Positions 9,635 through 64,000 of a DNA stretch of 64,000 nucleotides are shown here, one piece after another. The stretch lies in assembly GCA_944332185.1 (NCBI GenBank), contig CALVJJ010000004.1, forward strand, positions 5,768-69,767. The letters run 5' to 3'. Every line of letters begins with the position of its first letter. Position 1 is the first letter of the stretch. Under the pieces are notes generated by a model. That model did not search any database. It saw nothing but the letters and a program-made list of their open reading frames with translations, and was not told the origin of the DNA. The stretch is from an uncultured Clostridia bacterium (GTDB lineage Bacteria > Bacillota > Clostridia > Christensenellales > UBA1242). Both the position numbers and the translations under genes were made by a program.

Positions 9635-9649
9635 GCCATCTCCTTTTTT

Positions 9650-9680: not shown

Positions 9681-9691
9681 TTGCATATGAT

Positions 9692-46347: not shown

Positions 46348-46354
46348 CAAATAA

Positions 46355-46390
46355 GAAAAGAAAAGGAAAGCAATCCTTTTCTTTTTTTTA
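46355..46390 (+). terminator. rho-independent terminator of pheST
   Basis: GAAAAGG-aaagcaat-CCTTTTC followed by T8. Confidence 0.75.
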
Positions 46391-46637: not shown

Positions 46638-46674
46638 TATTTTGTTTGACAATTTTAGACAAAAATTTTATACT
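46638..46674 (+). promoter_or_regulatory. promoter of giant gene 2 (homologous to 13383-13420)
   Basis: TTGACA (46646-46651), 17-nt spacer, TATACT (46669-46674). The upstream tattttgtttgacaa string and the GACAAAAA element are the same as for giant gene 1. Confidence 0.6.
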
Positions 46675-46786
46675 TAATTATAGCATAAATAATCTTGAAT
46701 TTTATCTTTTTTACAGGGGTAAATTTTGAGATAAAATATGTATGAAAAATGTTCAATTTTCAAAAAATAAAAATACAGGTGAACAA

Positions 46787-46861
46787 ATGGAAAAATTCAA
46801 ATCTAAAATTAGTCTTATTTCTATGATGTTTTTATGGGCAATCCTTCTGCTTGCAGGGTGT
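46787..46861 (+). other. lipoprotein signal peptide and lipobox (LLAG-C25) of giant protein 2
   Basis: A basic n-region (KFKSK), a hydrophobic core, and LLAGC followed by GNPY, identical to the giant 1 cleavage region. Confidence 0.8.
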
Positions 46862-49800
46862 GGAAATCCTTATAGAAATATGAAACTAGAAATAGACAGC
46901 AAAATTGCTGTGGAAAATGGACAATATACTTTTGATGTAGACTTGGAAAATGACGAGCCTACTCCTTTTACATTCAGTGTGAATGTTGCAGGGGCAAAAA
47001 AAGGAGTAAATACCAATGTTATTGTATCATCTAGTCAAACAGAATATGTCACGGTAGATCAAACAGTAGTCAATGGTTCTAATACAGATGTACGATTGAC
47101 AGCATATCGTGTTGGACAAAGTCTAATCACAGTCAAAAGTGTAGAAGGAAATTTGACAGAGACTATTGTAGTAAGAGTCAACAAGCCTGTGGAAGATATT
47201 GTGGTTGACACAACTTCTTTGTACATAGAACGTGGGGTTGCCATAGATATGAGAGAAGTTGTCTCTTATTTGCCTACAGATACCAATCGCAAAGATTTGA
47301 TTTTGCAAGTAGGGCAAGTAGATATTCCAGCAGAAGAAAATCAAATTCTAATAGATGGGAATATGCTTACGGTAGATCAAAATTCTACAGTGCAATCTTT
47401 TGAACTTTCTATTCGTTCTCTATACAATGAAGATATTGAATCCAAACAAATCACTATACACGTTGTCGATGTGATACAAAATGATGCCATTGTGATCAAA
47501 TATGAAAAAGAAGGCGAATTCGTAGAATTAGAAAAGAATAACAATGGACAATATGTATTATCCATGGCACAAAATAGTGAAAATATTGGAGATTTTTCTA
47601 AAAACATTGCTTTCTTTGTAAGAACTCCAGAAGAAGATATATTGCTTGATCCAGCAACATACCAATTAGGGATTATCAATCAGCAAGGGGTTTTTACCGA
47701 TCATTATACAGATAGTTATGTTGATGTAACGAAGATGGATACTACATTCCAAATCATGGAACAAGGTATGGGATCCACGGTGTTAACATTTGGGTATCAA
47801 CATAAACTATTGGACACCAATTCCATCAAAAAGGTAACGTTACAAGTACTAGTGGAATACTATCCAGAATCCATCGTAGTAACCAATCAAAATGTACAAC
47901 TTGATGAAAATCATGGCATGACTATTTTTGATGAAGATAGACCATATGGCGATGGTAGCAATGCAATCCGTGTTAGTATACGCACTCTAAATGATACTGT
48001 TTTGACACGTTCTCCTTTCTATATTCATCTAGAAGGGGAACAAATAGCAGACTATAAAGTATCTTTGTACAATCGTAATGGCATTGTTGATCCAACGGCA
48101 ATGTATACCGAACAAGATGGTCCTTTCTATATTGTACATAACTATCCATCAGATGTGGAAATTGGAACATTTTCTCTAGTTATTACCAGTGCTGTAAGTG
48201 GTGTAGATCTTACAAAAACCATTCCTTTGCAATTTGTGAGAGGACAAATGGATATTGCTACCAATCAATCTATTTATTATCTTAACGTTGATGGAACAGC
48301 AGAAGATGGTACCAATATACAAAATATTACCTTTACAGGTATCAACGCAACGGAACTTTGGGAAAGTTTCCAAATTATTGGTATGCAAGATAGTCTAGTT
48401 ACTTGGGAATGGCTTGCTGATCATTCTGGTTTGTTGCTAACAGCCAATCTAGAAGGACGTACGGGAAAATTCGATGTGCGATTTGTGGCACCAAATGGTA
48501 ATGTGTGTGTAGCAACGATTGTTGTATTCCATGAATTACAAGATGCTAGCTTATATGTAGGGAATGCAGTACCTAGCAATATTGCTATTGCTTCTGTAGA
48601 AACTGTTACAGAAGATGTGATTGCGAATGCTCCTACTTATCAATTCTTAAGTGGGACTCAAGTACCATTAAACTTTATTCTCAATGGTACCGTACAATCT
48701 TTGTTCGAGGGAACAAGAGTTCAAGTACAATTAAGTGGACGAGGGGTGACCTTTAGAGCAGATAATCAATCTTTTACAGTTACCAGTAGTGCTGTAGAAA
48801 CTGTGGTGACTTTGACACTGCAAGGGTATGATAATACTGGACAGTCTTATGCAACTGTAAAATATTTTGTGTTTAAAGTTAGTCCTGTTTTACCAATCAC
48901 GCAAGTGACGATAGATCAACCAACAGGTAGTTCTAGTTTTCAAATTTATAGTAGATATGAACTAGATAGTTTGGAAGATGATACACTGAAAAAAGCAACT
49001 ATTCGCTATCGTGTATACCCAACTACCGTTAAGTATATGGATCCTACTTGGGAAGTGTTTGGTACACAAGGCAACACTATTGCACAACTGACTTACAATG
49101 AAAATGAACAATCTTCCACTTCTAGTGTGCAAATATCTTATACTTTAGGTCAAAATAATGAAAAACTTTATAAAACTTATGCTATTCGTTATGGCGATCA
49201 TACTATATTCGTAGAATTAAATTTGAAAGATAAAAGTTATGCTGTGGTCTATGCTAATATTATCAATGCAGATATTGTTACCTTCCATATTCGTGTAAAA
49301 CTAATGCAAGAATATCAAGACACCAATATGGTCACCACATACCTTTATAATGAAGAAGCTTATGCGACTATACAGGTACAAAAACCTACAAAAGTAGAGT
49401 CTATACGATTTGAAAATTTGCAAAAAGAAAATGATGAATATGTGTATTATTTTGATATTCGTGATATGCAACTAAATGGCAATCAATTCGTAGGCAACAA
49501 TACAGCTTCTATTAGAACCAATATCTATCCTATCGATTCTGTCAATACTAATTTGGTAATTGAAACAAAAGTTTGGGAAAGTGTAGATCAAGGTAGGACA
49601 TATCAAGATACAGGAAGTTCTGCGATTGCTTATCTTAATTATACCGTCCAAAATGTTGATGGGAAAAATTATCAAAAAGACTTACAAATTGAATTGTTGC
49701 AACTTCTTAATCAAGAAGGAGATGATGGATATATTACTAGATACATTGAAGTAATCATTTATGCACAAGATAGTAAAAACGGATCTAGCTACACCATTAG

Positions 49801-52800
49801 GAATCAATTCAAAATTTTCTTACTAGATGGTTCAGAAAGTAATCCATTTAGAGTACGAACGGCAGAAGATGTCGATGATATGAGAAATGGACTCAATAGC
49901 CATTATGTTTTAACGAATAATATTGACTTATCGTACTATATTGCGACTAGAATGAATGGTTCTTGGTCGCCAATCGGAGATAAGAATACACCTTTTACAG
50001 GATCTTTACGTAGTCAAAATACAGATGAATTCTATGGGAAATATACCATTAGTGGTTTATCATTTGTGGAAAACAGCAACACCAATAACATGCTTGTCAA
50101 CGATGTTGAAAATCACAAGGAATACTTCATTGGTCTATTTGGATATTTGGGTGATGGTGCAAGTTTACGTAGTTTTGATGTTGTTGTAAAACAATTTGAT
50201 GTAGTCCAAACCAAAGGTACAGTAGGTGATATGTTGTATTTTGGTGTACTAGCAGGTGCAACAGCAAAAAATACCACGATTGCAGGTGTAGGTGTCTATG
50301 ATAATCGTGGTGCGACAGTCAATCCAACAGGCAATGGTGTACAATTTGTTTCTACTTCTTCTATCACAGCTTACATAGGTGGTATGGTAGGATTCAATCA
50401 AGGCAGAATGACAAGTGCTACAGATACCACGCATGGAGTAGAGTATCGTTTGCAAGTCAATCTTGTCATGAGTGTACTAGACAATAGTACGACGGGAGCT
50501 TCTACTGTTGTGTATGTTGGTGGTATGGTGGGAGCTAATTCTGGAACAATTCAAAATTCCGAAAACAATACCCTTCTTTTTGGGGTGGACACGTATGATG
50601 TAGTAGTAGATATCAATCCTACCAACAATCAAGTATCTAACAGGAATTCTGTCTTTGGTGGGGTAGCAGGTAAGAACACAGGGACTATTCAACAACTACA
50701 AGTCTTGGCACACATCAAGGCATACAATCAAGTTGGTGGAGCAGTAGGATCTCAAGAAAGTGGTGTTTTACATTCACTTACTGTAGCTCCTTACATAAGA
50801 GGAAATGAAAGTATTGGTGGACTAATTGGTGTCATTAGTGGATACTCTTCTATCGATGATACCCATATAGAATTCTATGGCTATCAATATGCTAATAGCA
50901 TTGAAAATTCGAGTATCGTAGGAAAGGATAAAGTAGGTGGTTTGATTGGAACAACAACCACAAGAAGTAGTTTTACCATTAAAAATACATCTATTTATTC
51001 TTACACAAAAGCAACTGTTGAGGATTATTTGCCTACAGCAACTTCTGCTTTCTGGGGTGATGTAGTAGCACAGAATACTGATGCGTATTTGTCCTTAGGA
51101 ATTGGTTACCAAGGATCAAGTAATGCACAAAATATTGTGGTTACTTGGAATAATATTTTCGTATCTGCAAGTATGCAAAACTTTGCTTCTACCAATTCCC
51201 ATGCACTATTACCAAATGGTGCTATGGTGGTATACAACACATCACTGCATGTCACGATACCAACTGAAATCGACTCTATAGAAACATTTGCATTTGGAAC
51301 AGCTGTCACCAATTCTTATGCAGTCATCAATGAAAGTTTTGTAGGATATGATACCACAACTTCTTATACTAATTATCAAGAATTCTTAACTCAAATGAGT
51401 ACTATGATTTATACCTTTGATCAGGCAAAAGGAAATGCTGAAAAGGGATTGAATTTTGATAGTCAGGATCCTACTTATACCCAAGCACAAAAAACACAAT
51501 ATGAAAATGCAGTCTTCTATGCACATGAAGATTATACGATCACGATTGGAGATGTGACTTATCCATATTTGATCAACTTGGCAGGAACTGATGATCGTGG
51601 CACACCTTACGTGACAGATCTTACGACACAAACATTGCAACTTGTAGGCAGTGTACAATTACTTGTCAATTTGCCACCATTAGGGGTGACTTGTGAAGCA
51701 AAAGTGACTGTAGTGGGTATGGTTCGTCTGGCAGATAGCAACTATGATCAAAATGGTAACTTGATTGGAGATGTTGATGGTAGTTTGACAAGAGCTTTAG
51801 AGGAAGAAAATTTAAAACCTTTAGAGGAAATTCTATCTATAACAGCCATTCCAGCATTCTTAACCAACTCCAAAGTACAAGTGGTGGCGAACAATCGAAA
51901 AGTAGCAGAAATTGTGAGCTACAATGGAGCATCTTACTTGAAACTAAATGGTATTGGGGAAGTGACCTTAACTATCACAAGTTTGTATGATAGTACGATC
52001 ACAGCAAGTGCAACCCTTCAAGTGATAGATCAAGTGCTAGGATTTGGACTATATGAAGATGATGCTTATGCAGATTCCATTGTATTAAGTAATGATGACG
52101 CATTTCAATCACAATCTACTTTAACGATGGAAAAGGGAACGACCTTATCTATTTACTCTAAAATGATGCAAGATTGGAATGGATACCAACAAACCATGGA
52201 TTCTTCTTCCATTGGTGTAAGGTATCGCATTACAGCGATTGAAAATGAAAAACATGAAGATGTTGCGATTGATGAACAATATTTGACCATCAATGGTAAG
52301 ACAGGCACAATGTGGGAAAGTGCTTTAGGGCAAATGACCATGAAAGGATTGCAATCTGGCACAGTAACATTAGAAGCTTGTCCATATTATCGTAGTGGAG
52401 ATACAACCATCTACTATGAAGAGTATGCTGTTCAATTTGATCTCGATATTATTAACGGAACACAAGATGTGTTTGTAGAAGGACAAACGACAAGTATTCG
52501 TTTTGAACCAAGCAATACAACACAAAGATTTGCTGTTAGTATTGAAACAGACAAAGATAATGAGCAATTAGTTTTGTTGTTGACAGATTCCTATAATATG
52601 CATTATACATTTGTGCTTGATACAAAGAATTGGAAACAACAAAACACAATACAATTAGGGTATATGTTGTTATCTTGTGAATTTAGTAAGAATGACAACA
52701 TTATGACTTTTGCTTTCTATGTAAGAGCAGATATGTCAAAACTCTATCAACAAATAGACGAAATAGGCGAAACACAAGTCTTAGACAGTCTCAATACTGC

Positions 52801-55800: not shown

Positions 55801-58800
55801 CAATAAAGGTGGCACGATTGAAGATCAAGTCACAGATGATCCATTCGTAGATGCTATCAGTATGACACAATTTGGAAGATATTCTTCCTTTACAGGTTTT
55901 GCATTTAATGGGGATTATCAAGAAAATACAGCAGAAAAAGTAGCAAGTGCAGTTTGGTTTATTCCAGAAATGAACGAATATGATAATTGTTTTAGTGAAG
56001 ATGCAACGGAAAATACAGAAGATTTGTATTTCAGTATTATGCAAAACAATTACTATTTCCCAGCTAGACCACAACTAGTCAGCGCTAATATCTTGACACG
56101 TTCTGTTTCTTATTTAGCAGGATCAAAAACTGACGAAGAGAATAATGTGATTTATAGTTATCAAAATGTGGCTGATGCAGAAGGTTCTATTACCAATCCA
56201 TATTTGGTCTATGATGCACAATTATTTGATACACGTATGCACGATGTTCAAACATTGCGACAAGAAAATACTTTGAATACTCAAGAAGGGAATAATACCT
56301 ATAATATTCGTTTAATACGTGATTTTAGTTATGCAGACAAATTAGATAGAAAAGCCACCACCTATGATGTCCTCTTTAGTGGGATCCTAGATGGAAATGG
56401 TATGGAAGTGCAAGATTTGACCATAACGGCCGCTAAAGATAGTGATACGACTGCAGATATTGTACAAGCTGGTTGGTTCGGTTCTATCGATCAAGGAACA
56501 GTCAAAAACTTGTTCATTGAAGTGGAAGAAGTTAGTGCTACCGGTGTACCTTTTGTAGGGGTATTATCTGGGGTGATTCATGATGCCAATGTCTTTAATG
56601 TGACAATCACACCAGCGAATGAAGATTCTTATATTAGTGGAAGCAATATCATCGGTGGCCTAGCAGGACTTATCTATGGAAAGTCCCAAATCATTGGTAT
56701 TACTTCTAATGTCAATATTACCTCTTATTTTAAGAGCGGATCTAATGAATTCAATTTTGAAAATTTGTATGGAGACAAAGGCACATTTGCCATTCTCAAT
56801 ATCAATGAAACAAAAGATGATTTTTCTGATCGTTATACCAATTACAACAAAGTATCTTATGTTGGTGGTATTGTGGGTGTCATGGATGCTGAACTTAACG
56901 AAATTGATGCCTATTCTGTGGCACAGGCACAGACCAGCCAAGCAAGAAGATTGTCTGTGGGTGATACGATCCAGTTAGCAGGCGAAATTGTAGGTGGTAT
57001 TATGGGATACATGGGTAAGAATGTCGTTAGTGTCAATGATGAGATTCAGTTATCCGAAGATGCAACCATGAGTATCATCGCTTCTCGTGTTGCAGGTGGT
57101 ATTATTGGAGAAAATCATGGTAGCTTACAAAGATCCTTTGTATCACATATTACGACTTTACAAAATAGTATTGATGAAGCACAAAAATTAGGTACTTATG
57201 ATACGAATAATTATCGTAATTTGTTTGGTACCGATCAAGATGGAAAAGGTACAAGCAGAAATGCACATTATATTGGTGGACTTGTAGGACTCAATATCAA
57301 TGGTGTCATTGAGAATAGTTATAACAAAGTACCAGTATATTCCTTAAATGCCTTGGCAAGTGGTGGACTTATTGGACTAAGTTTTGGTGGAAGTATTGTA
57401 TCTAGTTATACCACAGCTACTGTACGATCTTATGAAAGTGCTGGTGGACTCATTGGTAGAATGGGCGAATGGTATACTACGACAGCAGAAGATGTGACGA
57501 CAGTAGATAGTGAAAAAATACAATCTACTTATTACATCAAATTGCCAGCATCTTATTATACTATGGTGGATTTACCTACGATATTTGATGGTGGTGTGGC
57601 TGCAACAGTATGGAATACAGAAGATTTGCATGCAAAATTAAGAGCCAATGGCACACTCAATACATACTATTATCTGGGTGCTTATGTAGGCAAGTTAGAT
57701 TCACCTATCAGTAATTTAGAGAACAATGATGCTTCTATTATGGGAACGTCTAGTTATAGTAGAGCAAAACAAGAAGTCAATTATGCAACCAAAGTGGTTC
57801 TTGACTATAAGACGAATATTGGTACAGACGCTTCCATGATTCTAACAGAAACTGGTAGTGGGAATTTAGTCAAAGCTACAGATGGTACCTATGTTCCATA
57901 TATCACAGGAGGAGTATATTTACAGAATCCAACGAATGGAAAAGAAACTTATTATTTGTATAGAGATATGGGATATTTCTGTTCTTTGCGTACACAAGAA
58001 GAAATTATAGCTAGACGATTACTCTGGGAGAATGATACTGTTACATGGAATGGTAAGATATTTGCTGGAACAGAAGATCCAATTGTTGACAATGGACAGT
58101 TCAAACATGCAGACAAATTAAAATCTTCCACAACATCTATCTATAATTCCTTTATGGAAATGTATTGGAATGGCTTTGATATCAACGATGTCACTTTAGA
58201 TCCAATCGATGAAAGTTATCTATATCCAGCATTAAAGGCTGAAACATACGATTTGATTGTGTATGTGACAACTGTTGAAGATTTGAAAAAGATGGACGTC
58301 TATCCAGATGCTACATTTATTCTAATGAATGATATTGATTTGGGTGATGAACCTTGGGTGCCTCTCTGTCAAGATACCCCATTCAATGGTACATTACGAA
58401 GCAACGAAGGCAATGTGTATACCATTCACAATCTGTATTTTACAGCAGATTCTATCGGTATGACACAAAGCAATCCTATCAATTCTAATATTGGACTCAT
58501 TGCACAAGCAAAACGTGCAAAATTCGAAAACTTTAATTTAACTTTAAAAGACACCAATATTACAGAAGATAATGCTGTCAGTGTGAATGCAGGATATGGT
58601 TTGAATTATGGTAATCTAGTTGGAGTAGTGGTGGACAATAAGAAAACAACCACCTTTACGAATATTCAAATTGGAGCAGAACAAGAAAACAATGTATCCT
58701 TAACGTTAAAAAATATCAACACCTATGGTGGTGTTGTCGGTGCAGGAACCAACTTTACTTTAAGTAAGGTTACAGTTGGACCTTATCAGGTAGGTAGTAT

Positions 58801-61800
58801 TTCACATTCTGGCATAAGTGCTACTATACAAAGTTTAGTAAAAGATACTCAATTTGGGAATAATGCACAACAACATGGTATTGGTGGACTCATTGGATTG
58901 TATATTCAAGAAGGATATGAACCACTTTCTTTGCTAAGTACTGCAGTTTCTCATCATACTTGGGACATAGCAACAAGTGATGAAGGTAAAAACCATACTT
59001 CCATTGCTATGGGTGGAGCCATTGGATCTATCGTAGATTACAATTTAACCACCACAAGTGCAACCTATCAATTAGATGTATCTGTGAGCAACATATCTAT
59101 CAAAGATAACAGCACACAAGAAAACAATCAATATGCAATGGGTGGTGTCATTGGTAGTCTGACCGGGAATACGACTCTCAATACAAGTGAAGATACTTCC
59201 ATTACCACTTGGCAAATAGATGCTATTACCTTAGAAAATGTTAATACTTCTACTAATACTACTTCTTATATTGGTGGACTTGTGGGATATCAAAGTACAC
59301 ATAACAGTGCTAACAGCAATGATATTGTGTATAAGATACCATCTTATACGAAAGACAATGATATCACAATGAATGTGTTGGGTACATCTGTTGGTGGATT
59401 ATTTGGATATCTTAGTGGAGCATCTATCATAAGCAGTAGTGATGCTGTTACCACAATTCCTGAAAACTTCATGAATATTACGATAAAAGGGAAGATTGGG
59501 GATTTGGGTATATTAGCAGGAACATTTGTAAATGCTCAAGATATACAGAATATAAGTATTACACCTCAAACATTTAACTATGCGGGATTGTATCAAATTA
59601 CTAATTTTGGAACAGTCGCTGGTTCTATGACCGGAGGCACCATTGATGGTGTAACTGTACAAGATTACCAAAAAGCGCTCGTTGAAAACCAAGAAACGAA
59701 CCAACGATTATCCATCAATACCCTTGGTGGTATTGTGGGCAACAGTAATGGAACAATGATTCAAAATTGTTCTGTAACAGATGATGCTAACAAACGTGTT
59801 GACGCTAACAAACGTATTTATGCTAACACTCATGGTGGAATTGCTGGACAAAGTGTTTTAAGTGGTAGTACATGGTCTAATCTACAAGTAAACATTGCTG
59901 GGTTATCAGGAAATATTGCTGGTGGTATTGTAGGAAAAGTAGATAATACCATACAAGAAACATCACAATTAAATACCCGTACTACTGGATCCATTAGCCA
60001 AGTATTGACTAAAGGAAATATTTATCAATATTATGCATCAGCAGATACCATTTCTTGGTATACAAATGGGTATATGGGTGGTATCATTGGTCATCTATCT
60101 GCAAGTATTACCCTAGATCAAGCAGTCAGTGAAATGAATCTTATTTTAGATCGTACGAGCAAATATGTTGGTGGATTGGTTGGATACAATGCAGGAAGTA
60201 TTACTAATAGTTATAGCCAAGGATATCTCGATATCTCTGAAAGTTCCAAAGGTAATGAGAGCGCAACCGAGAATAATCCTGTATACTTAGGTGGATTGGT
60301 TGGGTACAATGCAGGAAGCATAGAAGATACCTATACTATTAGTCGTTATGTCTATGGATCGAATGTCACGATGTACTATGATACCACCAAAGGTGGACTT
60401 GTGGGAGACATGGCAACTAATGCTTCTATTAGTCGTAGTTATTACAGTACAGATATTACTCCTTATAGTAATGATTGGGGAAAAGGTCTCTATTTAGATG
60501 AAATATTGGGTAAATCATTTACAGAAACTACTTCAATAGAAAATACTTTGTGGGCATCAGATGGTATTACAGATACAACACCTCAACTAGCATGGACTAA
60601 AGATAAAAATATCACGACTTCTATCATATCTTCATCAGCAGCAACAACAGATACTATTAGTAATATTGTATACGATGTTGATGGATCGATCACTGTACAA
60701 GCAGTTGGGAAAACAGGATTCATCATTGCTCCTAGTGTAACAGTTGGTGGAAATAATGATGGTATGATCTTTGGTGGTAAGAATAAAGGTACATCATTAT
60801 CTATCACAGGGGATCAAAATGGAATTGTCGATTACTTTGTGGTATATAGTGAAGAATTTATTATTGACGGTAATCAAAAGGGATTACTTAACCGAGTCAG
60901 TTATACCGGAAGTAACAATATTGCAGATACTCTTGGCGGTATCTTACGCAATGTGGAGATCTTTACAACAAGTAATCTTGATTCGATATTAACTAACCAA
61001 GTCACATGGATAGATAGTATTGTGGCACAACAAGATGTAGACAATGCTACTGTGACGAATATGACCTTCTATCGAACTAAGAGTAAAACTGTCATAAGTC
61101 ATAATCCAGCTGATTATGTAGATCTTGGTGGATCTACAGATCTATGGATCATGATTCGTACATCCAATCAAAAAGTAGAAGACAATGATACCACTAGAAG
61201 AAAACTCAATTATGGATTCCCAGTCTTACGTTGGTCATTGCAAGATAGTTATACTATGGCTACAACTGATCAATTAAGTGATAAGTATTATTGGAAGTCT
61301 AATGATGACTTGGTCACAGATTTACAAAGTAATACATGGAATACCTACGATATTGATCTAGGCAACAAACTATGGACTCCATTAGCAACAACTACAACTA
61401 CACAATTAAGTGGGAATTTGCAAGGTGTAGCAGATCAAGGTGTGAGTACAACTATGTTAGACACCTTTGGAAAGAACTACACAGCAGATCGAGGACAGAC
61501 ACTGAATCGTATCTACAATATGACCATTTATTATCAAAACAAGATGATGGCAGAAACTGATATGACTAATCTTACGAATATTGGTTTATTCCAAACTTTG
61601 CCTAGTGTCAGTAATATTAGAATGGAGAATGCTCTCATCTTTGTACCAGATGGTACGGGTACAGCATTGAATGTTGGGACGGTAGCAGGGAAAGTTACAA
61701 GTTCTGCAACTAGACTTGCTTCTGTCAATAGTTCTATCTATGTAGGCAATGATCAATCTACTGTCGGTGGATTGATTGGATCTATGGAGGACAGTGGCAC

Positions 61801-64000
61801 TATCACCATGGCATATACTATTTATACTGAACATGGAATGAATGTCTCTGAAAACACTCAAGATACTTACACATACACTTCTGGCATTAGTACAAAGTCT
61901 ACAAAAGGAGAAATTGTAGGTAAGGGTAATGGTTCACAACTTTATACTCCATTATCTTCTACTGGTAATAAGTTGAGTGGTGGTGGAACTATCAGTAGTG
62001 CATACTATAAAGAAGATCAACTAAAAACTTCTGTTCTAGAAGGATTCAATTGGAATATTTGGCAACGACAAAATAATGCAGAACATTATTACAACTTGCC
62101 ATATATTGATGGAGATTATCCATATTGGATTGATGGTGTGCGCAAGGTTGACAATGCTTACTACTACAATGAAAACAATACAGGTATTACCACTTCTACA
62201 GAAGCATATACTGTCCATACATCACAACAACTAGCAGTCATTGCTTATATTACGAATGTTGAACAAAGGAATGTAAACGTGACTTTGGGTGCCAATATTG
62301 ATCTTGGTGGAAAACTTTGGACGCCAATCGGCATAGAAAGTAACGCATACCAAGGGACATTTGATGGTGGTTCTCATACTATATCTAATATGGTTATCAC
62401 GAGAGTTCATGCAACAAAAGATGATCAAGATTATGCTGGACTCTTTGGGTATATGAGTGGTGCAACGATCAAGAATGTAAATATAGAGAATAGTAATATC
62501 TTCTTTACGGATTCTGCCAAAATTGTTGATACTGTTGGATCCATCTCAGGTTATACCACGAATTCATCTATTACCAATGTCCATGTGAACAATGTCGTCT
62601 TATACGTCAATGGACAGACTGTGGGTGGATTGGTAGGATCTGCTAATGCAACTACAATTTCACGAAGTAGCGTGACAGGTTCGACCATGAGTGCCAATGA
62701 TATCATGGGAGGTCTTATTGGTGAAAGTAATGGTGGAACAGTAGAGACTTCCTATATTACAGGTAGTACGATGACACAAGTAGCAAGTAGTGTGACAGGT
62801 TCGACATCATCTACCCAAGTAGCTTACCTATCTAGTCTATCCAATACCAATGCAACCACGAGATCTAATGTAGCGTCACCATACCAAGGTGGACTAATTG
62901 GAATATCTACGAATACCAATATTTTAGAGGTTGTGGCAGATACTACTAAGATTAGTAATCATGCTGATTCTTATAAAAACGTAGGAGAACTATTTGGATC
63001 TATTACAGTCAGTAATGATACTCCTACCATGACCAATGGTGTACATAATGTATTAGCGTACGATGTGACCAATGGAACAAATAATCCAATAGAAAAATTA
63101 TTTGGAAATGATCTAACTTACCATAACAATATGAGTATGATATTCACAAATAGGAAAACTGATTTAGATACAACGTACTATATTGGTGGATTACCTAATA
63201 TAGAAGATGCAATTATGACAAACAATCCATGGTGGAATGGTCGAATCAATGATAATAATAGGACAGCCAATATCGATAGACCATATTATGTACCGGGGAA
63301 TGCAACGAACAATACAGATATTACACTTGCAGATTTTATGGCTACGATGAGTTTACGATACTATCCAAATGGTAGTATTCCAACGACAAAGTATACCATT
63401 ACGCAAGTAGGTAGTAGTTATACAACAATCTATTATGATGATTTTACCATTCAAAAATCTGCTGGAACTACGTATTATCCTATTGCCAATACTTCTCTTT
63501 ATGGACCAGGTAAAGATAGTTATTATCAATTAGAAATTGCAACGAATGGTATCTCTTACTTATTTGAGACAATGACTAATATTACAGAGTTTAAGAACTT
63601 TAATATCTCTACTGACGTACCTATTGCTAATTCTATTGATAATAGTAAAATTGGAGATAAAGTTTCCAGTGAATTTAGCAATCTAGTTTTAACATCTAGT
63701 GCACAAGGTGGTGCACTTGCAGTAGAATATAAAGGGAATGGAACATTATATTCTTCTATAGGCAAAGAAGATGCTTTTATTACGGTGAATGCGAATGAAA
63801 TTTCCGGTGGTGGCTTATGTGATTATATAAAAAATGCAACTGTGCAATATGTCACTATTACAGGAAGTATTGTAGGAGCATTTAATCAAGAAGCTGTCGG
63901 TGGCGTTGTTGGAAAGATGGTATCTGGTGAGATTAGTAATGTCACTGTTACGGCAACTGTTGATGGAAATGGTGCTCCACAAGTTGGTGGTGTGATCGGT
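46787..64000 (+). CDS. second giant surface lipoprotein, 3'-truncated by the window (at least 5,738 codons), paralogue of 13587-30890
   Basis: Not in the supplied track. The ATG at 46787 follows AGGTGA. The signal is MEKFKSKISLISMMFLWAILLLAG|CGNPY. I translated frame 2 by hand from 46787 to about 54700 without meeting a stop and spot-checked 59786-59829 and 63980-64000 (..QVGGVIG). The track lists no frame-2 ORF ending anywhere in 46348-64000, and every antisense ORF there is 100 aa or shorter. The product has the same Big_2-like and GLUG content as giant 1. Confidence 0.93.
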   Translation, partial: MEKFKSKISLISMMFLWAILLLAGCGNPYRNMKLEIDSKIAVENGQYTFDVDLENDEPTPFTFSVNVAGAKKGVNTNVIVSSSQTEYVTVDQTVVNGSNTDVRLTAYRVGQSLITVKSVEGNLTETIVVRVNKPVEDIVVDTTSLYIERGVAIDMREVVSYLPTDTNRKDLILQVGQVDIPAEENQILIDGNMLTVDQNSTVQSFELSIRSLYNEDIESKQITIHVVDVIQNDAIVIKYEKEGEFVELEKNNNGQYVLSMAQNSENIGDFSKNIAFFVRTPEEDILLDPATYQLGIINQQGVFTDHYTDSYVDVTKMDTTFQIMEQGMGSTVLTFGYQHKLLDTNSIKKVTLQVLVEYYPESIVVTNQNVQLDENHGMTIFDEDRPYGDGSNAIRVSIRTLNDTVLTRSPFYIHLEGEQIADYKVSLYNRNGIVDPTAMYTEQDGPFYIVHNYPSDVEIGTFSLVITSAVSGVDLTKTIPLQFVRGQMDIATNQSIYYLNVDGTAEDGTNIQNITFTGINATELWESFQIIGMQDSLVTWEWLADHSGLLLTANLEGRTGKFDVRFVAPNGNVCVATIVVFHELQDASLYVGNAVPSNIAIASVETVTEDVIANAPTYQFLSGTQVPLNFILNGTVQSLFEGTRVQVQLSGRGVTFRADNQSFTVTSSAVETVVTLTLQGYDNTGQSYATVKYFVFKVSPVLPITQVTIDQPTGSSSFQIYSRYELDSLEDDTLKKATIRYRVYPTTVKYMDPTWEVFGTQGNTIAQLTYNENEQSSTSSVQISYTLGQNNEKLYKTYAIRYGDHTIFVELNLKDKSYAVVYANIINADIVTFHIRVKLMQEYQDTNMVTTYLYNEEAYATIQVQKPTKVESIRFENLQKENDEYVYYFDIRDMQLNGNQFVGNNTASIRTNIYPIDSVNTNLVIETKVWESVDQGRTYQDTGSSAIAYLNYTVQNVDGKNYQKDLQIELLQLLNQEGDDGYITRYIEVIIYAQDSKNGSSYTIRNQFKIFLLDGSESNPFRVRTAEDVDDMRNGLNSHYVLTNNIDLSYYIATRMNGSWSPIGDKNTPFTGSLRSQNTDEFYGKYTISGLSFVENSNTNNMLVNDVENHKEYFIGLFGYLGDGASLRSFDVVVKQFDVVQTKGTVGDMLYFGVLAGATAKNTTIAGVGVYDNRGATVNPTGNGVQFVSTSSITAYIGGMVGFNQGRMTSATDTTHGVEYRLQVNLVMSVLDNSTTGASTVVYVGGMVGANSGTIQNSENNTLLFGVDTYDVVVDINPTNNQVSNRNSVFGGVAGKNTGTIQQLQVLAHIKAYNQVGGAVGSQESGVLHSLTVAPYIRGNESIGGLIGVISGYSSIDDTHIEFYGYQYANSIENSSIVGKDKVGGLIGTTTTRSSFTIKNTSIYSYTKATVEDYLPTATSAFWGDVVAQNTDAYLSLGIGYQGSSNAQNIVVTWNNIFVSASMQNFASTNSHALLPNGAMVVYNTSLHVTIPTEIDSIETFAFGTAVTNSYAVINESFVGYDTTTSYTNYQEFLTQMSTMIYTFDQAKGNAEKGLNFDSQDPTYTQAQKTQYENAVFYAHEDYTITIGDVTYPYLINLAGTDDRGTPYVTDLTTQTLQLVGSVQLLVNLPPLGVTCEAKVTVVGMVRLADSNYDQNGNLIGDVDGSLTRALEEENLKPLEEILSITAIPAFLTNSKVQVVANNRKVAEIVSYNGASYLKLNGIGEVTLTITSLYDSTITASATLQVIDQVLGFGLYEDDAYADSIVLSNDDAFQSQSTLTMEKGTTLSIYSKMMQDWNGYQQTMDSSSIGVRYRITAIENEKHEDVAIDEQYLTINGKTGTMWESALGQMTMKGLQSGTVTLEACPYYRSGDTTIYYEEYAVQFDLDIINGTQDVFVEGQTTSIRFEPSNTTQRFAVSIETDKDNEQLVLLLTDSYNMHYTFVLDTKNWKQQNTIQLGYMLLSCEFSKNDNIMTFAFYVRADMSKLYQQIDEIGETQVLDSLNTAVSVQFDFYVLGQESIDILPQATSTTDNKYTLDKTGFFQISTASRSEVISKANSNVINYPNLIITMNTEELKHGAMNAYHYPNNLEKQIEATTEETKEESYVFNGEEIPYDTILSGKNGLLKIDYTPIYANVDYVEITSTAINGQYIRFDQMIKTYTLSTVGDTSTINIQYVRDSESADPIENGITLGKRSFAYNGKTMFNGSFYVRTTIPSSIQAGNVYTITIRAYKYLPTGESVLVDTMTKQLDVLMPPSVSISCSTQAIARGMTQNFTLKINGQDDTTTLSFEQSTLKKGNVSYSYGNYFTIQSMGNDQYQVWVSSAVPQGAELNIVYKVSKRINGVNIEETNLQQPLTLTVADFVVNAIGVENVYNGRFVGLLNQFYTLRIVLTDVTYNSRTLGVAQAITNLENTLSTLAYTTQNTTLTSTWWTQEGNDLTQIKTQSYAGFIASTSKQEDNSVSIRVKNTVLTTNTLLKARTYLYYGDNGIVAVPYNQIGLPAYNGLCQNLEYDFTFDCYQYTDEENPTPIYNEEQFIDMVDNGVGDYRLMADLTLSNWTPRNTYHSTSDAVSGQTVTGVISSFDGNGYVIKIESFNTQAIQETGIAGLFATVHEDTLLKNITVLLEPTGDAQRVEVDQEGNGLASSENSVDEFDIEIDLTGNDTVYYGTIAGINNGMITNCAVTYNTEAYQDQRINELLQGTEVSPINVLSFEEYELYTTVGDQLKDTDGNYRFYQAVEKVSNFHNTIYDTVIQNNNVIKNGRTLTSIWIESDLGISAYVGGLVGQNNGYITNSRVEHISIKGSGYVAGLVAENTNKISSSYYKDGNIKNNFNSTTNAGTGGLVAINSGYIGYSYVEGRNPYQMMIGQELEGDFETVANRSVTSVDLTKFTGDNYESLLELGMYAVSMRNTYSAINTNTHAGGFVYDNTGTITNSYANILVNSTGDSAGFVYQNGENGSISEVYSLSSVAINKRNASQFSGRTTSGNWLNQGTIEHSVYLKVEGLDNKGGTIEDQVTDDPFVDAISMTQFGRYSSFTGFAFNGDYQENTAEKVASAVWFIPEMNEYDNCFSEDATENTEDLYFSIMQNNYYFPARPQLVSANILTRSVSYLAGSKTDEENNVIYSYQNVADAEGSITNPYLVYDAQLFDTRMHDVQTLRQENTLNTQEGNNTYNIRLIRDFSYADKLDRKATTYDVLFSGILDGNGMEVQDLTITAAKDSDTTADIVQAGWFGSIDQGTVKNLFIEVEEVSATGVPFVGVLSGVIHDANVFNVTITPANEDSYISGSNIIGGLAGLIYGKSQIIGITSNVNITSYFKSGSNEFNFENLYGDKGTFAILNINETKDDFSDRYTNYNKVSYVGGIVGVMDAELNEIDAYSVAQAQTSQARRLSVGDTIQLAGEIVGGIMGYMGKNVVSVNDEIQLSEDATMSIIASRVAGGIIGENHGSLQRSFVSHITTLQNSIDEAQKLGTYDTNNYRNLFGTDQDGKGTSRNAHYIGGLVGLNINGVIENSYNKVPVYSLNALASGGLIGLSFGGSIVSSYTTATVRSYESAGGLIGRMGEWYTTTAEDVTTVDSEKIQSTYYIKLPASYYTMVDLPTIFDGGVAATVWNTEDLHAKLRANGTLNTYYYLGAYVGKLDSPISNLENNDASIMGTSSYSRAKQEVNYATKVVLDYKTNIGTDASMILTETGSGNLVKATDGTYVPYITGGVYLQNPTNGKETYYLYRDMGYFCSLRTQEEIIARRLLWENDTVTWNGKIFAGTEDPIVDNGQFKHADKLKSSTTSIYNSFMEMYWNGFDINDVTLDPIDESYLYPALKAETYDLIVYVTTVEDLKKMDVYPDATFILMNDIDLGDEPWVPLCQDTPFNGTLRSNEGNVYTIHNLYFTADSIGMTQSNPINSNIGLIAQAKRAKFENFNLTLKDTNITEDNAVSVNAGYGLNYGNLVGVVVDNKKTTTFTNIQIGAEQENNVSLTLKNINTYGGVVGAGTNFTLSKVTVGPYQVGSISHSGISATIQSLVKDTQFGNNAQQHGIGGLIGLYIQEGYEPLSLLSTAVSHHTWDIATSDEGKNHTSIAMGGAIGSIVDYNLTTTSATYQLDVSVSNISIKDNSTQENNQYAMGGVIGSLTGNTTLNTSEDTSITTWQIDAITLENVNTSTNTTSYIGGLVGYQSTHNSANSNDIVYKIPSYTKDNDITMNVLGTSVGGLFGYLSGASIISSSDAVTTIPENFMNITIKGKIGDLGILAGTFVNAQDIQNISITPQTFNYAGLYQITNFGTVAGSMTGGTIDGVTVQDYQKALVENQETNQRLSINTLGGIVGNSNGTMIQNCSVTDDANKRVDANKRIYANTHGGIAGQSVLSGSTWSNLQVNIAGLSGNIAGGIVGKVDNTIQETSQLNTRTTGSISQVLTKGNIYQYYASADTISWYTNGYMGGIIGHLSASITLDQAVSEMNLILDRTSKYVGGLVGYNAGSITNSYSQGYLDISESSKGNESATENNPVYLGGLVGYNAGSIEDTYTISRYVYGSNVTMYYDTTKGGLVGDMATNASISRSYYSTDITPYSNDWGKGLYLDEILGKSFTETTSIENTLWASDGITDTTPQLAWTKDKNITTSIISSSAATTDTISNIVYDVDGSITVQAVGKTGFIIAPSVTVGGNNDGMIFGGKNKGTSLSITGDQNGIVDYFVVYSEEFIIDGNQKGLLNRVSYTGSNNIADTLGGILRNVEIFTTSNLDSILTNQVTWIDSIVAQQDVDNATVTNMTFYRTKSKTVISHNPADYVDLGGSTDLWIMIRTSNQKVEDNDTTRRKLNYGFPVLRWSLQDSYTMATTDQLSDKYYWKSNDDLVTDLQSNTWNTYDIDLGNKLWTPLATTTTTQLSGNLQGVADQGVSTTMLDTFGKNYTADRGQTLNRIYNMTIYYQNKMMAETDMTNLTNIGLFQTLPSVSNIRMENALIFVPDGTGTALNVGTVAGKVTSSATRLASVNSSIYVGNDQSTVGGLIGSMEDSGTITMAYTIYTEHGMNVSENTQDTYTYTSGISTKSTKGEIVGKGNGSQLYTPLSSTGNKLSGGGTISSAYYKEDQLKTSVLEGFNWNIWQRQNNAEHYYNLPYIDGDYPYWIDGVRKVDNAYYYNENNTGITTSTEAYTVHTSQQLAVIAYITNVEQRNVNVTLGANIDLGGKLWTPIGIESNAYQGTFDGGSHTISNMVITRVHATKDDQDYAGLFGYMSGATIKNVNIENSNIFFTDSAKIVDTVGSISGYTTNSSITNVHVNNVVLYVNGQTVGGLVGSANATTISRSSVTGSTMSANDIMGGLIGESNGGTVETSYITGSTMTQVASSVTGSTSSTQVAYLSSLSNTNATTRSNVASPYQGGLIGISTNTNILEVVADTTKISNHADSYKNVGELFGSITVSNDTPTMTNGVHNVLAYDVTNGTNNPIEKLFGNDLTYHNNMSMIFTNRKTDLDTTYYIGGLPNIEDAIMTNNPWWNGRINDNNRTANIDRPYYVPGNATNNTDITLADFMATMSLRYYPNGSIPTTKYTITQVGSSYTTIYYDDFTIQKSAGTTYYPIANTSLYGPGKDSYYQLEIATNGISYLFETMTNITEFKNFNISTDVPIANSIDNSKIGDKVSSEFSNLVLTSSAQGGALAVEYKGNGTLYSSIGKEDAFITVNANEISGGGLCDYIKNATVQYVTITGSIVGAFNQEAVGGVVGKMVSGEISNVTVTATVDGNGAPQVGGVIG
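59786..59829 (+). repeat. in-frame 18-bp tandem repeat (about 2.4 units) in giant gene 2
   Basis: gctaacaaacgtgttgac / gctaacaaacgtatttat / gctaacac..., encoding ANKRVD-ANKRIY-ANT. Confidence 0.85.
60170..60321 (+). repeat. 32-nt direct repeat exactly 120 bp apart in giant gene 2
   Basis: ggtggattggttggatacaatgcaggaagtat (60170-60201) versus ggtggattggttgggtacaatgcaggaagcat (60290-60321), 30/32 identical. Both encode GGLVGYNAGSI. Confidence 0.85.

What the first reader, a model, noticed from the sequence alone, without database searches (positions are those of the whole stretch)
46787..64000. A second giant lipoprotein gene that the ORF track misses entirely
The last 17.2 kb of the window looks empty in the ORF track; only short antisense ORFs are listed. 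In fact frame 2 is open from ATG 46787 to the final base. The track apparently reports only ORFs closed by a stop codon. The product begins MEKFKSKISLISMMFLWAILLLAGCGNPY, so its lipobox and the next four residues are identical to those of the 5,767-aa protein at 13587. It then shows the same succession of Big_2-like beta-sandwich segments and GLUG-type GG-x-x-G repeats. An open frame of at least 5,738 codons in such AT-rich DNA cannot arise by chance. The true length is unknown because the gene continues beyond the window.
Basis: seen in the sequence. Interest (0 to 1): 0.85.

Follow-up and report, generated by a model that had tools for sequence, protein, structure and literature searches.

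The report
Second giant surface lipoprotein gene
The last 17 kb of the window is the first 90% of a real gene for a roughly 6,400-residue, lipid-anchored cell-surface fibre protein of an uncultured gut Clostridia bacterium; it is a distant twin of the giant gene 16 kb upstream, belongs to a very rare uncharacterised family, and its building blocks are of known kinds.

Summary
Frame 2 is open from 46730 to 64000, giving 5,738 codons from ATG 46787 (chance about 1e-204). The ORF lister omits it only because it runs off the window. Public gene calls on the same contig give 6,427 aa from ATG 46742. That is 6,412 aa from the better-supported ATG 46787, so the stop lies near window position 66025.

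The product has a canonical lipobox (LLAG|C25). An array of about ten Ig-like domains follows, then at least six or seven GLUG-motif beta-helix modules. An unassignable region (aa 1501-2522) lies after the first module, and shorter unassigned spacers separate the later ones. It is collinear with the 5,767-aa protein at 13587 at only about 26% identity, and neither protein has appreciable internal sequence repeats.

An exhaustive search of 1.84 billion representative proteins found four relatives with E <= 1e-10. The three with usable flanking DNA sit downstream of pheST or next to another giant gene. Five of the six family genes examined share a promoter element.

The most likely function is a long adhesive surface fibre; this is inferred, not shown. 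It is a new family variant of a known kind of protein. Interest is moderate.

The parts
46353..46388 (+). Intrinsic terminator of pheT. It separates gene B from the pheST operon.
   Evidence: 15-pair stem followed by a T-run; 0 expected in shuffles.
46644..46674 (+). Promoter of gene B: -35 TTGACA (46646-46651), 17-nt spacer containing the conserved GACAAAAA element, and -10 TATACT (46669-46674).
   Evidence: 11 of 12 matches to the consensus; the motif GTTTGACAA-N5-GACAAAAA occurs only here and at 13389 in the window (0.09 expected). It also lies upstream of the family genes in L007, L009 and L011.
46777..46782 (+). Shine-Dalgarno sequence AGGTGA, 4 nt before ATG 46787.
   Evidence: Read directly. 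The same AGGTGAA precedes the MEK start in L007, L009 and L011.
46787..64000 (+). Gene B, the first 5,738 of about 6,412 codons. It runs off the window, with the predicted stop near window position 66025.
   Evidence: no stop codon; public gene calls give 6,427 aa from ATG 46742 on two contigs; collinear at 47.9% identity with the 6,519-aa orthologue P0001 over B 1-5738.
46787..46861 (+). Type II (lipoprotein) signal peptide, aa 1-24, with the lipobox L-A-G-C (aa 22-25, nt 46850-46861) and the lipidated Cys25.
   Evidence: matches a PROSITE PS51257-type pattern, has 3 Lys in the first 7 residues and Cys at position 25. The same layout is present in A and in eight relatives (a ninth, P0013, has a degenerate variant); this is the only hydrophobic segment in the protein.
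46862..49816 (+). Array of about ten tandem Ig-like beta-sandwich domains (aa 26-1010), proposed as the membrane-proximal stalk. The first two domains (aa 49-219, nt 46931-47443) are Big_2-like.
   Evidence: AF2 model with mean pLDDT 76, all-beta. Foldseek best hits are tandem Ig arrays (NUP210, SbsB, Sap, titin, GhpA), E 1e-23 to 1e-11; phmmer hits to Pfam-confirmed Big_2 arrays; hhalign against a Big_2 profile, E 3.5e-5 and 6e-5.
49835..51286 (+). GLUG beta-helix module 1 (aa 1017 to about 1500; the end is approximate).
   Evidence: cap HMM, 84 bits. GGxxG motifs at aa 1198-1384; the part of the model with pLDDT 60-85 is likely what aligns to the IgA1-protease chains 7uvk and 6xja (about 375 columns, rmsd 6-7 A, prob 1.0, but E only 8e-3 to 5e-2; the aligned residue ranges were not returned).
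51287..54352 (+). Middle region (aa 1501-2522) with no family match. It is beta-rich and includes a further small Ig-like domain near aa 1685-1750. Its fold is not established.
   Evidence: no Pfam or NCBIfam match; pLDDT mostly below 50; 67-69-column matches to lambda gpV Ig-like domain and intimin domains, E only 0.08-0.28.
54353..56086 (+). GLUG beta-helix module 2 (aa 2523 to about 3100).
   Evidence: cap HMM, 72 bits; weak GLUG match at aa 2777-2795. Seen in the sequence.
56189..57586 (+). GLUG beta-helix module 3 (aa 3135 to about 3600). It lies in the longest block conserved with A.
   Evidence: cap HMM, 67 bits; motifs at aa 3290-3553. GLUG 20.9 bits at aa 3492-3514. B 2794-3561 aligns with A 2901-3653, E 1e-31.
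58247..60586 (+). GLUG beta-helix module 4, possibly two modules (aa 3821 to about 4600).
   Evidence: cap HMM, 89 bits, plus a partial cap at aa 4247; motifs at aa 3981-4536. GLUG 33.7 bits, three stretches, best at aa 4459-4483.
61241..62086 (+). GLUG beta-helix module 5 (aa 4819 to about 5100).
   Evidence: cap HMM, 44 bits; motif at aa 4994.
62195..63046 (+). GLUG beta-helix module 6 (aa 5137-5420).
   Evidence: cap HMM, 84 bits; 46 homologues, mostly GLUG (PF07581) proteins of about 450 aa, best E 1e-24. Peptidase_M26_N 21.7 bits at aa 5217-5268, below the cut-off.
63704..64000 (+). Start of a seventh GLUG module (aa about 5640-5738), cut by the window end.
   Evidence: motifs at aa 5705 and 5734. 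GLUG 20.3 bits at aa 5702-5725. The orthologue continues with about 12 more GLUG turns and then a C-terminal domain of about 500 aa with no family.
13587..30890 (+). Gene A, the complete 5,767-aa paralogue, with the same lipobox, the same order of modules and the same promoter element (13389-13420).
   Evidence: Eight full-length strain variants at 98.6-99.98% identity.

Best explanation
Gene B encodes a giant (about 6,412 aa, about 700 kDa, pI about 4.5) secreted lipoprotein of an uncultured, probably spore-forming, gut Clostridia bacterium. After Sec export, Cys25 would be diacylglycerol-modified and the signal peptide cut by signal peptidase II, leaving the protein tethered to the outer face of the cytoplasmic membrane by its N-terminus only. 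The first roughly 1,000 residues form a beads-on-a-string stalk of about ten Ig-like domains, long enough in principle to cross the cell wall. Beyond it lie at least six or seven GLUG-motif right-handed beta-helix modules. An unassignable beta-rich region follows the first module, shorter unassigned spacers separate the later ones, and a family-specific C-terminal domain lies outside the window. The whole protein would form a fibre of the order of 100-200 nm whose distal beta-helices bind ligands such as glycans, host mucus, food particles or other cells. It is transcribed on its own from a near-consensus sigma-A promoter that it shares with its paralogue A. Shown here: the open frame, the lipobox, the Ig-like array, the GLUG modules, paralogy with A, orthologues and synteny, and the shared promoter. 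Inferred: lipidation, surface exposure, fibre geometry and adhesive function.
For: The gene is real and intact. There is no stop in 5,738 codons and the composition is coding-like. The same sequence appears at 99.99-100% identity in six assemblies from several samples, and two contigs give a 6,427-aa product. There are no long DNA repeats that could mislead assembly. Lipoprotein: the lipobox, the charged n-region and Cys at position 22-25 are conserved in A, B and eight relatives, with a degenerate variant in P0013. There is no other hydrophobic segment and no LPXTG. The MEK start with its AGGTGA ribosome-binding site is conserved in orthologues, and in L009 the upstream ATG is out of frame. 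Ig-like stalk: AF2 pLDDT 76, all-beta. Foldseek hits are tandem Ig arrays of adhesins, S-layer proteins and titin, at E down to 1e-23. Big_2 relation. Beta-helix modules: GLUG scores above the gathering threshold. There are 30 GGxxG motifs against 0.7 in shuffles, spaced about 30 aa apart in clusters. Six full-length cap-HMM hits lie at positions conserved in A, P0001 and L007. Module 6 has homologues that are stand-alone GLUG proteins. Module 1 shows a weak structural match to the IgA1-protease beta-helix (PMC7695701). The composition (Cys 0.2%, Arg 2.3%, rich in Thr, Ser, Asn and Gly, acidic) fits the published signature of giant surface proteins (PMC10756260 citing Reva and Tummler 2008). 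Variation between strains of A concentrates in the distal modules, as expected for an exposed tip. Beta-solenoid domains mediate ligand binding in SRRP adhesins and are proposed to do so in the A. kunkeei Giant proteins (PMC12863079).
Against: There is no direct evidence of expression, lipidation, surface location or binding. About 90% of the length has no Pfam or NCBIfam match. The aa 1360-2210 part of the second model is unreliable (pLDDT below 50). The C-terminal 674 residues were not seen. Positions of the modules are conserved across very divergent paralogues and orthologues, and there is no repeat homogenisation. This suggests position-specific roles that a simple spacer-plus-adhesin picture does not explain. 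The beta-helix fold is also common in polysaccharide-degrading enzymes.
Confidence: 0.6

Rival explanations
1. It is a surface-tethered enzyme. One or more beta-helix modules, or the unseen C-terminal domain, degrade a polymer (polysaccharide lyase or hydrolase, or an IgA-protease-like peptidase), and the rest of the protein is only a stalk.
For: The right-handed beta-helix is the fold of pectate lyases and many glycosidases (established knowledge). There are weak Peptidase_M26_N matches (19-22 bits), and Foldseek matches to IgA1 protease chains. The largest Epulopiscium giant protein is interpreted as a surface glycosyl hydrolase (PMC10756260).
Against: No catalytic family is found in Pfam or NCBIfam for A (complete), for B (5,738 aa) or for the orthologue's C-terminal 509 aa. 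There is no HExxH motif in A or B. The M26_N matches are below the cut-off and cover only the part of that model flagged as beta-helix. In IgA1P the beta-helix is a gate, not the catalytic domain (PMC7695701).
Confidence: 0.15
2. It is a structural envelope component: an S-layer-like coat or sheath protein that covers the cell rather than binding external ligands.
For: The S-layer proteins SbsB, SbsC, Sap and EA1 are among the Foldseek matches. The promoter is strong and near-consensus. Two paralogues sit in one genome.
Against: Those matches reflect generic tandem Ig-like domains. There is no SLH or other wall-binding domain. S-layer proteins are typically 40-200 kDa and self-assemble in two dimensions, whereas a single N-terminal lipid anchor with a 6,400-residue extension suggests a fibre.
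Confidence: 0.12
3. It is a delivery scaffold for a C-terminal toxin or effector, of the polymorphic-toxin or contact-dependent competition type.
For: The C-terminal domains of A and of the B-type orthologue are unrelated to each other while the scaffolds are collinear. This recalls swapping of C-terminal cassettes.
Against: No toxin, Rhs, pre-toxin or immunity family is found. The genes downstream are DegV (after A) and a ComF-like gene (after the orthologue), not small immunity genes. B and P0001 stay collinear up to the window end.
Confidence: 0.05
4. It is an assembly artefact or a decaying pseudogene.
For: The sequence comes from metagenome assemblies, and the relative in L011 is split by a frameshift.
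Against: The frame is open for 17.2 kb. The sequence is identical in six assemblies, and two give the same full-length call. Intact orthologues of 6,519 aa and at least 4,831 aa exist in other genomes in the same synteny. There are no long repeats. Eight intact strain variants of the paralogue exist.
Confidence: 0.01

Closest known systems
GLUG-motif beta-helix domain (Pfam PF07581), as in the N-terminal domain of M26 IgA1 metalloproteases (S. pneumoniae and G. haemolysans IgA1P; PDB 6XJA, 7UVK) and in stand-alone GLUG proteins of about 450 aa
   Same: GLUG motifs score above Pfam's threshold. Module 6 is 29-39% identical to stand-alone GLUG proteins from Oscillospiraceae, Methanocorpusculum, Synergistaceae and Bacteroidota. 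The model of module 1 superposes on IgA1P chains over about 375 columns at 6-7 A rmsd, most plausibly on their beta-helix, although the aligned ranges were not returned.
   Different: There are six to seven such modules in one chain instead of one. There is no M26 catalytic domain, no HExxH, no G5 domain, no LPXTG and no T9SS sorting domain. Neither a single sequence nor a profile of the modules finds any PDB chain by sequence.
Giant1-5 extracellular proteins of Apilactobacillus kunkeei (3,000-8,000 aa; PMC12863079)
   Same: Both are Firmicutes from a host-associated niche. Both have several giant genes per genome. Both combine beta-solenoid and Ig-like elements in an elongated molecule of about 0.2 um, have Asn-rich atypical composition and a presumed binding role.
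   Different: The Giant proteins have a type I signal peptide, one N-terminal beta-solenoid, long imperfect internal repeats (mostly alpha-helical) and C-terminal DUF5776/SH3b-like wall-binding domains. Here the anchor is an N-terminal lipid, the Ig-like array comes first, the beta-helices are multiple and distal, there are almost no internal sequence repeats and DUF5776 is absent.
Tandem Ig-like (Big_2-type) arrays of bacterial adhesins and S-layer proteins (intimin/invasin, SiiE, RTX adhesins, SbsB, Sap, GhpA)
   Same: The N-terminal 985 residues fold as a tandem beta-sandwich array with these proteins as best structural matches. The first two domains match a Big_2 profile.
   Different: Pfam Big_2 does not score at all. 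The domains are so diverged from one another that they are not detected as repeats. The array forms the membrane-proximal end of a lipoprotein rather than the passenger of a T1SS or T5SS adhesin.
Other giant genes of gut Clostridia (Epulopiscium 6,869-aa and 6,833-aa proteins, PMC10756260; 10,000-30,000-aa repetitive proteins, bioRxiv 10.1101/2023.11.21.568195)
   Same: Same bacterial class, gut habitat, size class, Cys- and Arg-poor composition and Ig-like domains.
   Different: Those proteins are described as highly repetitive (RCC1, Listeria-Bacteroides repeats, 21-31 recognisable Ig domains), or as lacking secretion signals, or as having transmembrane helices. None is described as a lipoprotein with multiple GLUG beta-helices.

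Membership tests
Bacterial lipoprotein (Lgt/LspA substrate, PROSITE PS51257-type signal) | Lipobox [LVI][ASTVI][GAS]C, preceded by an uncharged hydrophobic stretch, with Cys within residues 15-35 | tested here: met
   FLWAILLLAG|C25 matches the pattern. The same holds in A (C22) and eight relatives; P0013 has a degenerate variant.
Bacterial lipoprotein (Lgt/LspA substrate, PROSITE PS51257-type signal) | Positively charged n-region (Lys or Arg in the first 7 residues) | tested here: met
   K3, K5 and K7.
Bacterial lipoprotein (Lgt/LspA substrate, PROSITE PS51257-type signal) | Actual diacylglycerol modification and signal peptidase II cleavage; lgt and lspA present in the genome | not testable with these tools
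   No experiment is possible, and lgt/lspA are not in the window.
GLUG motif (Pfam PF07581) | hmmscan score at or above the gathering cut-off of 20.5 bits | tested here: met
   B: 33.7 bits (aa 4019-4712 piece), 20.9 bits and 23.7 bits (first 5,000 aa). A: 32.6 and 23.9 bits.
GLUG motif (Pfam PF07581) | Right-handed beta-helix fold of the module | tested here: inconclusive
   The model of module 1 reaches only pLDDT 60-85 over about 330 residues. The Foldseek match to IgA1P chains has prob 1.0 but E 8e-3 to 5e-2.
Big_2 (Pfam PF02368) | hmmscan score at or above the gathering cut-off of 22.8 bits | tested here: not met
   No Big_2 match at E <= 1 in any piece of A or B.
Big_2 (Pfam PF02368) | Ig-like beta-sandwich fold and remote homology to Big_2 repeats | tested here: met
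   Met for the first two domains only: hhalign E 3.5e-5 and 6e-5, and phmmer hits to Pfam-confirmed Big_2 arrays. An Ig-like fold is predicted for the whole 26-1010 array.
M26 IgA1 metalloprotease (ZmpA/IgA1P) | HExxH zinc site and Peptidase_M26_C catalytic domain | tested here: not met
   No HExxH in A or in B 1-5738. No M26_C match. No Pfam family in the orthologue's C-terminal 509 aa. B's own last 674 aa were not seen.
M26 IgA1 metalloprotease (ZmpA/IgA1P) | Peptidase_M26_N at or above the cut-off of 27.7 bits | tested here: not met
   19.1 and 21.7 bits, covering model positions 203-249 only.
A. kunkeei Giant1-5 family | Type I signal peptide, N-terminal beta-solenoid, long internal repeats and C-terminal DUF5776/SH3b-like domains (PMC12863079) | tested here: not met
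   The signal is type II. There are no internal repeats by BLAST or phmmer. DUF5776 is absent from A and from B's visible part.
Sortase-anchored (LPXTG) Gram-positive adhesins | C-terminal LPXTG followed by a hydrophobic segment and a charged tail | tested here: not met
   Absent from A (complete) and from the orthologue P0001. There is no C-terminal hydrophobic segment. B's own C-terminus was not seen.
This giant-lipoprotein family (B, A, P0001, L007, P0002-P0004) | Lipobox followed by G-(N/D)-P-Y-x-x-M-x-L, an Ig-like array of about 1,000 aa, and the first beta-helix cap at about aa 960-1090 with further caps at collinear positions | tested here: met

The most novel reading that the evidence does not exclude
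A and B are not generic sticky proteins. They would be the position-specific subunits of an undescribed long surface appendage of a small clade of uncultured gut Clostridia. Supporting this reading: each of the roughly 10 Ig-like domains and 6-7 beta-helix modules has kept its own identity and position across paralogues (26% identity) and across genera (25-48%). There is no repeat homogenisation. The family has its own conserved promoter element, and the B-type gene has a fixed position after pheST. This suggests an ordered multi-site machine, for example for attachment to a particular host or partner-cell structure, with the two paralogues forming distinct or paired fibres.
Probability: 0.12. 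Interest if true: 0.7.

Novelty: new variant of a known kind. Interest (0 to 1): 0.4.

Why it matters
Together the two genes take up about 36.5 kb (17.3 kb for A and about 19.2 kb for B). About 34.5 kb of that lies inside this 64-kb window. Both must be costly to make, yet they are kept intact across strains and genera, so they probably dominate the cell surface of this uncultured gut bacterium. The case also has a practical lesson: ORF listings that require a closing stop codon silently drop the largest genes at contig or window ends, and more than 90% of such proteins is invisible to domain databases. A lipid-anchored protein of 6,400 residues with multiple GLUG beta-helices is an unusual architecture for a Gram-positive organism and gives a defined target for asking what GLUG modules bind. 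It does not, however, change any general principle. Giant Ig-like and beta-helix surface proteins are well known, and no new mechanism is demonstrated.

Tried and rejected
**Searches that failed or were uninformative**
- The search for homologous proteins with 5,738 aa and with 5,000 aa failed on length and on time.
- The same tool with B 1-1200 and B 1-425 returned nothing. This is uninformative, because the tool's only productive search returned only proteins shorter than 500 aa. The exhaustive HMMER search replaces it.

**Attempts to recover B's 3' end**
- A GTDB representative-genome scan with B's C-terminal 1,000 aa found nothing.
- An exact 47-mer search in JGI metagenomes found nothing.
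- A family alignment searched against JGI metagenomes found nothing.
- Exact look-up of the truncated products was not on record.
- The stop position therefore rests on public gene calls.

**Family and structure searches**
- The five-sequence family alignment was too divergent for pattern searching.
- PDB sequence searches found nothing real. These used B 1-5000, B 5001-5738 and a profile of 11 beta-helix modules. The T-plastin hit at E 0.14 is noise.
- NCBIfam found nothing.
- The second AF2 job (aa 1011-2210, 6-sequence alignment) gave pLDDT 44. Only its first 330 residues or so are usable, and the fold of the aa 1500-2520 region remains unknown.

**Internal repeats**
- BLAST and phmmer on A and B found only a few weak hits. 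A recent repeat expansion is rejected.
- No tandem DNA repeats or homopolymer tracts suggesting phase variation were found.

**Other**
- Literature searches by sample accession found nothing.
- ATG 46742, the gene caller's start, is rejected in favour of 46787. It has a weaker ribosome-binding site and would put Cys at position 40. In L009 the corresponding ATG is followed by an immediate stop codon (MN*), and it is absent from L007 and L011.
Full report
**1. Observation**

Translating 46787-64000 in frame gives 5,738 codons with no stop. The frame opens at 46730, after a stop at 46727-46729. With 7.8% stop codons expected from the base composition, the chance of such a run is about 10^-204. 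Codon-position composition (G 0.33 at position 1, GC3 0.25) is the same as in gene A and leuS. The ORF tool lists only two 100-aa ORFs in this stretch, because it omits ORFs that run off the source. The N-terminus reads MEKFKSKISLISMMFLWAILLLAGCGNPY. LLAGC and the following GNPY are identical to the 13587 product.

**2. Gene limits**

- *Public gene calls.* The same locus is present in public assemblies. The gene caller gives a product of 6,427 aa on two contigs, starting at the ATG equivalent to window position 46742. This places the stop near window position 66025, about 2.0 kb beyond the window.
- *Preferred start.* I prefer ATG 46787, which gives 6,412 aa and about 700 kDa. It is preceded by AGGTGA at the right distance. 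The MEK(F/V)KSK start with the same AGGTGAA is conserved in three other genomes. In the closest orthologue the upstream ATG is followed at once by a stop codon. Only this start puts the lipobox Cys at residue 25, as in all relatives.
- *Transcription unit.* A terminator follows pheT at 46353-46388. A near-consensus promoter (TTGACA, 17 nt, TATACT; 11 of 12 matches) lies at 46646-46674. B is therefore its own transcription unit with a leader of about 105 nt.

**3. Not an artefact**

- Six assemblies from several samples carry the 5' 2.5-9.6 kb of B at 99.99-100% identity.
- The only DNA repeats inside A and B are the 20-40-nt stretches that encode the Y-(V/I)-G-G-L-(V/I)-G motif. There are no long repeats or notable tandem arrays.
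- Gene A exists as eight full-length variants (5,764-5,768 aa) at 98.6-99.98% identity.
- Intact orthologues of B exist elsewhere (section 6).

**4. Relation to gene A**

- B and A align significantly but distantly. BLASTP gives E 1e-31 (B 2794-3561 with A 2901-3653) and 2e-24 (N-termini), at about 26% identity. The significant blocks are in the same order along both proteins.
- Neither protein has appreciable internal repeats by BLAST or phmmer.
- They are old, diverged paralogues with a conserved layout.

**5. Architecture**

- *Signal.* The lipoprotein signal meets the PROSITE-type rule. It is the only hydrophobic segment, and there is no LPXTG. The protein is acidic (pI 4.5), poor in Cys (0.2%) and Arg (2.3%), and rich in Thr, Gly, Asn and Ser.
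- *Residues 26-1010.* With a 9-sequence family alignment, AlphaFold2 gives an all-beta model (mean pLDDT 76) of about ten sandwich domains. Foldseek's best PDB matches are tandem Ig-like arrays: NUP210, SbsB, Sap, titin, GhpA and an RTX adhesin, with E 1e-23 to 1e-11. Pfam Big_2 does not score. However, the exhaustive search hit Big_2 arrays through aa 85-175. A profile-profile comparison matches the first two domains to a Big_2 profile (E 3.5e-5 and 6e-5, probability 65-72%); the later domains do not match.
- *GLUG motifs.* GLUG passes Pfam's cut-off in several pieces of both proteins. The motif G[GA]xxG occurs 30 times in B and 26 times in A, against 0.7 in shuffles. It falls in clusters with spacing of about 30 aa.
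- *Module starts.* Each cluster is preceded by a recognisable cap of the form (I/V)xTxE(D/Q)L...Y.L..DIDL...W.P(I/L)G...F.G.(F/L)DG.G..I..L...GLFG. An HMM built from five B caps finds strong full-length hits at B 1017, 2523, 3135, 3821, 4819 and 5137. It finds them at matching positions in P0001, L007 and A. A seventh cluster begins near aa 5640 and is cut by the window end.
- *Relatives of the modules.* Module 6 has 46 homologues, mostly stand-alone GLUG proteins of about 450 aa. The usable part of the second AF2 model (module 1, pLDDT 60-85) is probably what superposes on IgA1 metalloprotease chains, presumably on their beta-helix, since the aligned ranges were not returned. This match is weak (E 8e-3 to 5e-2, prob 1.0, rmsd 6-7 A over about 375 columns). 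That beta-helix is described in PMC7695701.
- *Unassigned regions.* Residues 1501-2522 and the spacers have no family match and no reliable model.
- *C-terminus.* In the orthologue, the region beyond the window holds about 12 more GLUG turns and then about 500 aa with no Pfam family. The C-terminal domains of A and of the B-type orthologue are not detectably related.

**6. Family and context**

- *Rarity.* HMMER scored B 26-1010 against 1.84 billion representative proteins. It found 19 proteins at E <= 1e-3 and 4 at E <= 1e-10.
- *P0001.* This 6,519-aa protein is collinear with B over all 5,738 residues at 47.9% identity. Its locus reads MBL, pheS, pheT, giant gene, then a ComF-like gene. PheS and PheT are 79% and 65% identical to the window's.
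- *L007.* A GTDB representative MAG, 'uncultured Clostridia bacterium Lapin-024__bin86', carries pheS and pheT (66% and 50% identity) followed by a giant lipoprotein ORF of at least 4,831 aa. That ORF is collinear with B at 25-29% identity.
- *Fragments.* P0002, P0003 and P0004 are pieces of further giant genes, cut by a frameshift or by contig ends. One genome has two giant genes in tandem. P0012 is a fragment of an A-type orthologue.
- *Absences.* Nothing was found in JGI metagenomes.
- *Host organism.* The window's other genes indicate an anaerobic, spore-forming Firmicute. They include leuS, nrdDG, tyrS, spoIIID, rubrerythrin, and pheST with a T-box leader.

**7. Shared promoter**

The element GTTTGACAA-N5-GACAAAAA occurs only twice in the window, upstream of A (13389) and of B (46644), against 0.09 expected. 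It recurs upstream of the family genes in L007, L009 and L011. L010 has a looser version. Conservation of the spacer as well as the hexamers suggests common regulation. This is inference.

**8. Mechanism**

The best-supported picture is a fibre anchored to the membrane by its N-terminal lipid. An Ig-like stalk would carry the protein through the wall, and multiple beta-helix modules would provide distal binding surfaces.
- Shown: the sequence features listed above.
- Inferred: lipidation, exposure, length and ligand binding.

The inference rests on three points. First, the fold types are those of known adhesins and of SRRP-type beta-solenoids (PMC12863079). Second, the composition is typical of giant surface proteins (PMC10756260). 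Third, no catalytic family or motif was found. Strain variation of A concentrates at aa 3751-4000 and 4500-5250, which fits an exposed distal part. The rival explanations are an enzyme, an S-layer-like coat, a toxin scaffold and an artefact. They are scored separately.

**9. Comparison with known systems**

- It works like giant Gram-positive surface adhesins. The nearest published analogues are the A. kunkeei Giant1-5 proteins. It is not a member of that family, because the signal type, the domain order, the repeats and the C-terminal domains all differ.
- Its beta-helix modules belong to the GLUG family.
- It is not an M26 protease: there is no HExxH, no M26_C match, and M26_N scores below the cut-off.
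- Its stalk is Ig-like, but only marginally Big_2.

**10. Verdict**

The gene is already called in public assemblies, unnamed and with no Pfam family recorded, and it is built from known module types. It is therefore a new family variant of a known kind of protein rather than a new kind.

The unusual points are:
- a lipid anchor on a protein of 6,400 residues;
- many beta-helix modules with almost no sequence repetition;
- strict collinearity across deep divergence;
- synteny with pheST;
- a family-specific promoter element;
- extreme rarity in sequence databases.

Interest is 0.4.

Noticed in passing
window 13389-13420 and 46644-46674; L007 9903-9924; L009 5379-5400; L011 403-422: A near-consensus sigma-A promoter with a conserved spacer element (TTGACAA-N4-6-(G/T)ACAAAAA-N3-4-TATAC(T/A)) precedes five of the six giant lipoprotein genes examined (not L010), across genomes whose PheT is only 50% identical. 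It occurs nowhere else in the 64-kb window. It may be a binding site for a regulator.
   Followed up: partly
window 46738-46770; L009 5509-5541: A 10-codon upstream ORF in B's leader (MYEKCSIFKK) is conserved in start, length and stop in the orthologue's leader (MYELNLIFKK). It is absent from L007 and L011. It could be a leader peptide or simply conserved RNA.
   Followed up: partly
window 46459-46614 (+): A 51-aa ORF between pheT and gene B is called as a gene in six public assemblies and has no significant family match.
   Followed up: no
window 13587-30890 (gene A), aa 3751-4000 and 4500-5250: Among eight full-length strain variants of A (98.6-99.98% identity), variable positions concentrate in the distal modules: 34 in aa 3751-4000, against 0-8 in most 250-aa bins.
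   Followed up: partly
L010 1-11943 and L011 502-10475: Another genome carries two giant genes in tandem: a C-terminal fragment of at least 1,400 aa (the gene call lists 1,621), then about 800 nt, then a new lipoprotein start. In L011 a family member is split by a frameshift into 1,657 aa plus at least 1,674 aa, which together are collinear with B.
   Followed up: partly
L007 about 9400-9700: Four copies of a unit of about 22 nt, TTTAGTCA-N3-4-TGCACAAAA, lie in the long pheT-to-giant-gene spacer of the rabbit-gut Clostridia MAG. They were seen by eye in the output.
   Followed up: no
window 42695-42906 (+): A T-box leader (Rfam RF00230, 107.6 bits) lies upstream of pheS, and a tRNA-Glu(CTC) lies at 9692-9766(-). 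Both are ordinary features that support a Firmicute origin.
   Followed up: yes
window 1-1680, 34743-35435 and 35552-36493 (+): Three ORFs have no Pfam family: one of 466 aa (open from base 1, so possibly truncated), one of 230 aa and one of 313 aa.
   Followed up: no
tool behaviour: The word-indexed protein search returned only proteins shorter than 500 aa in its one productive search. It found neither B, nor A, nor the 48%-identical P0001. Its silence on giant proteins should not be read as absence.
   Followed up: partly
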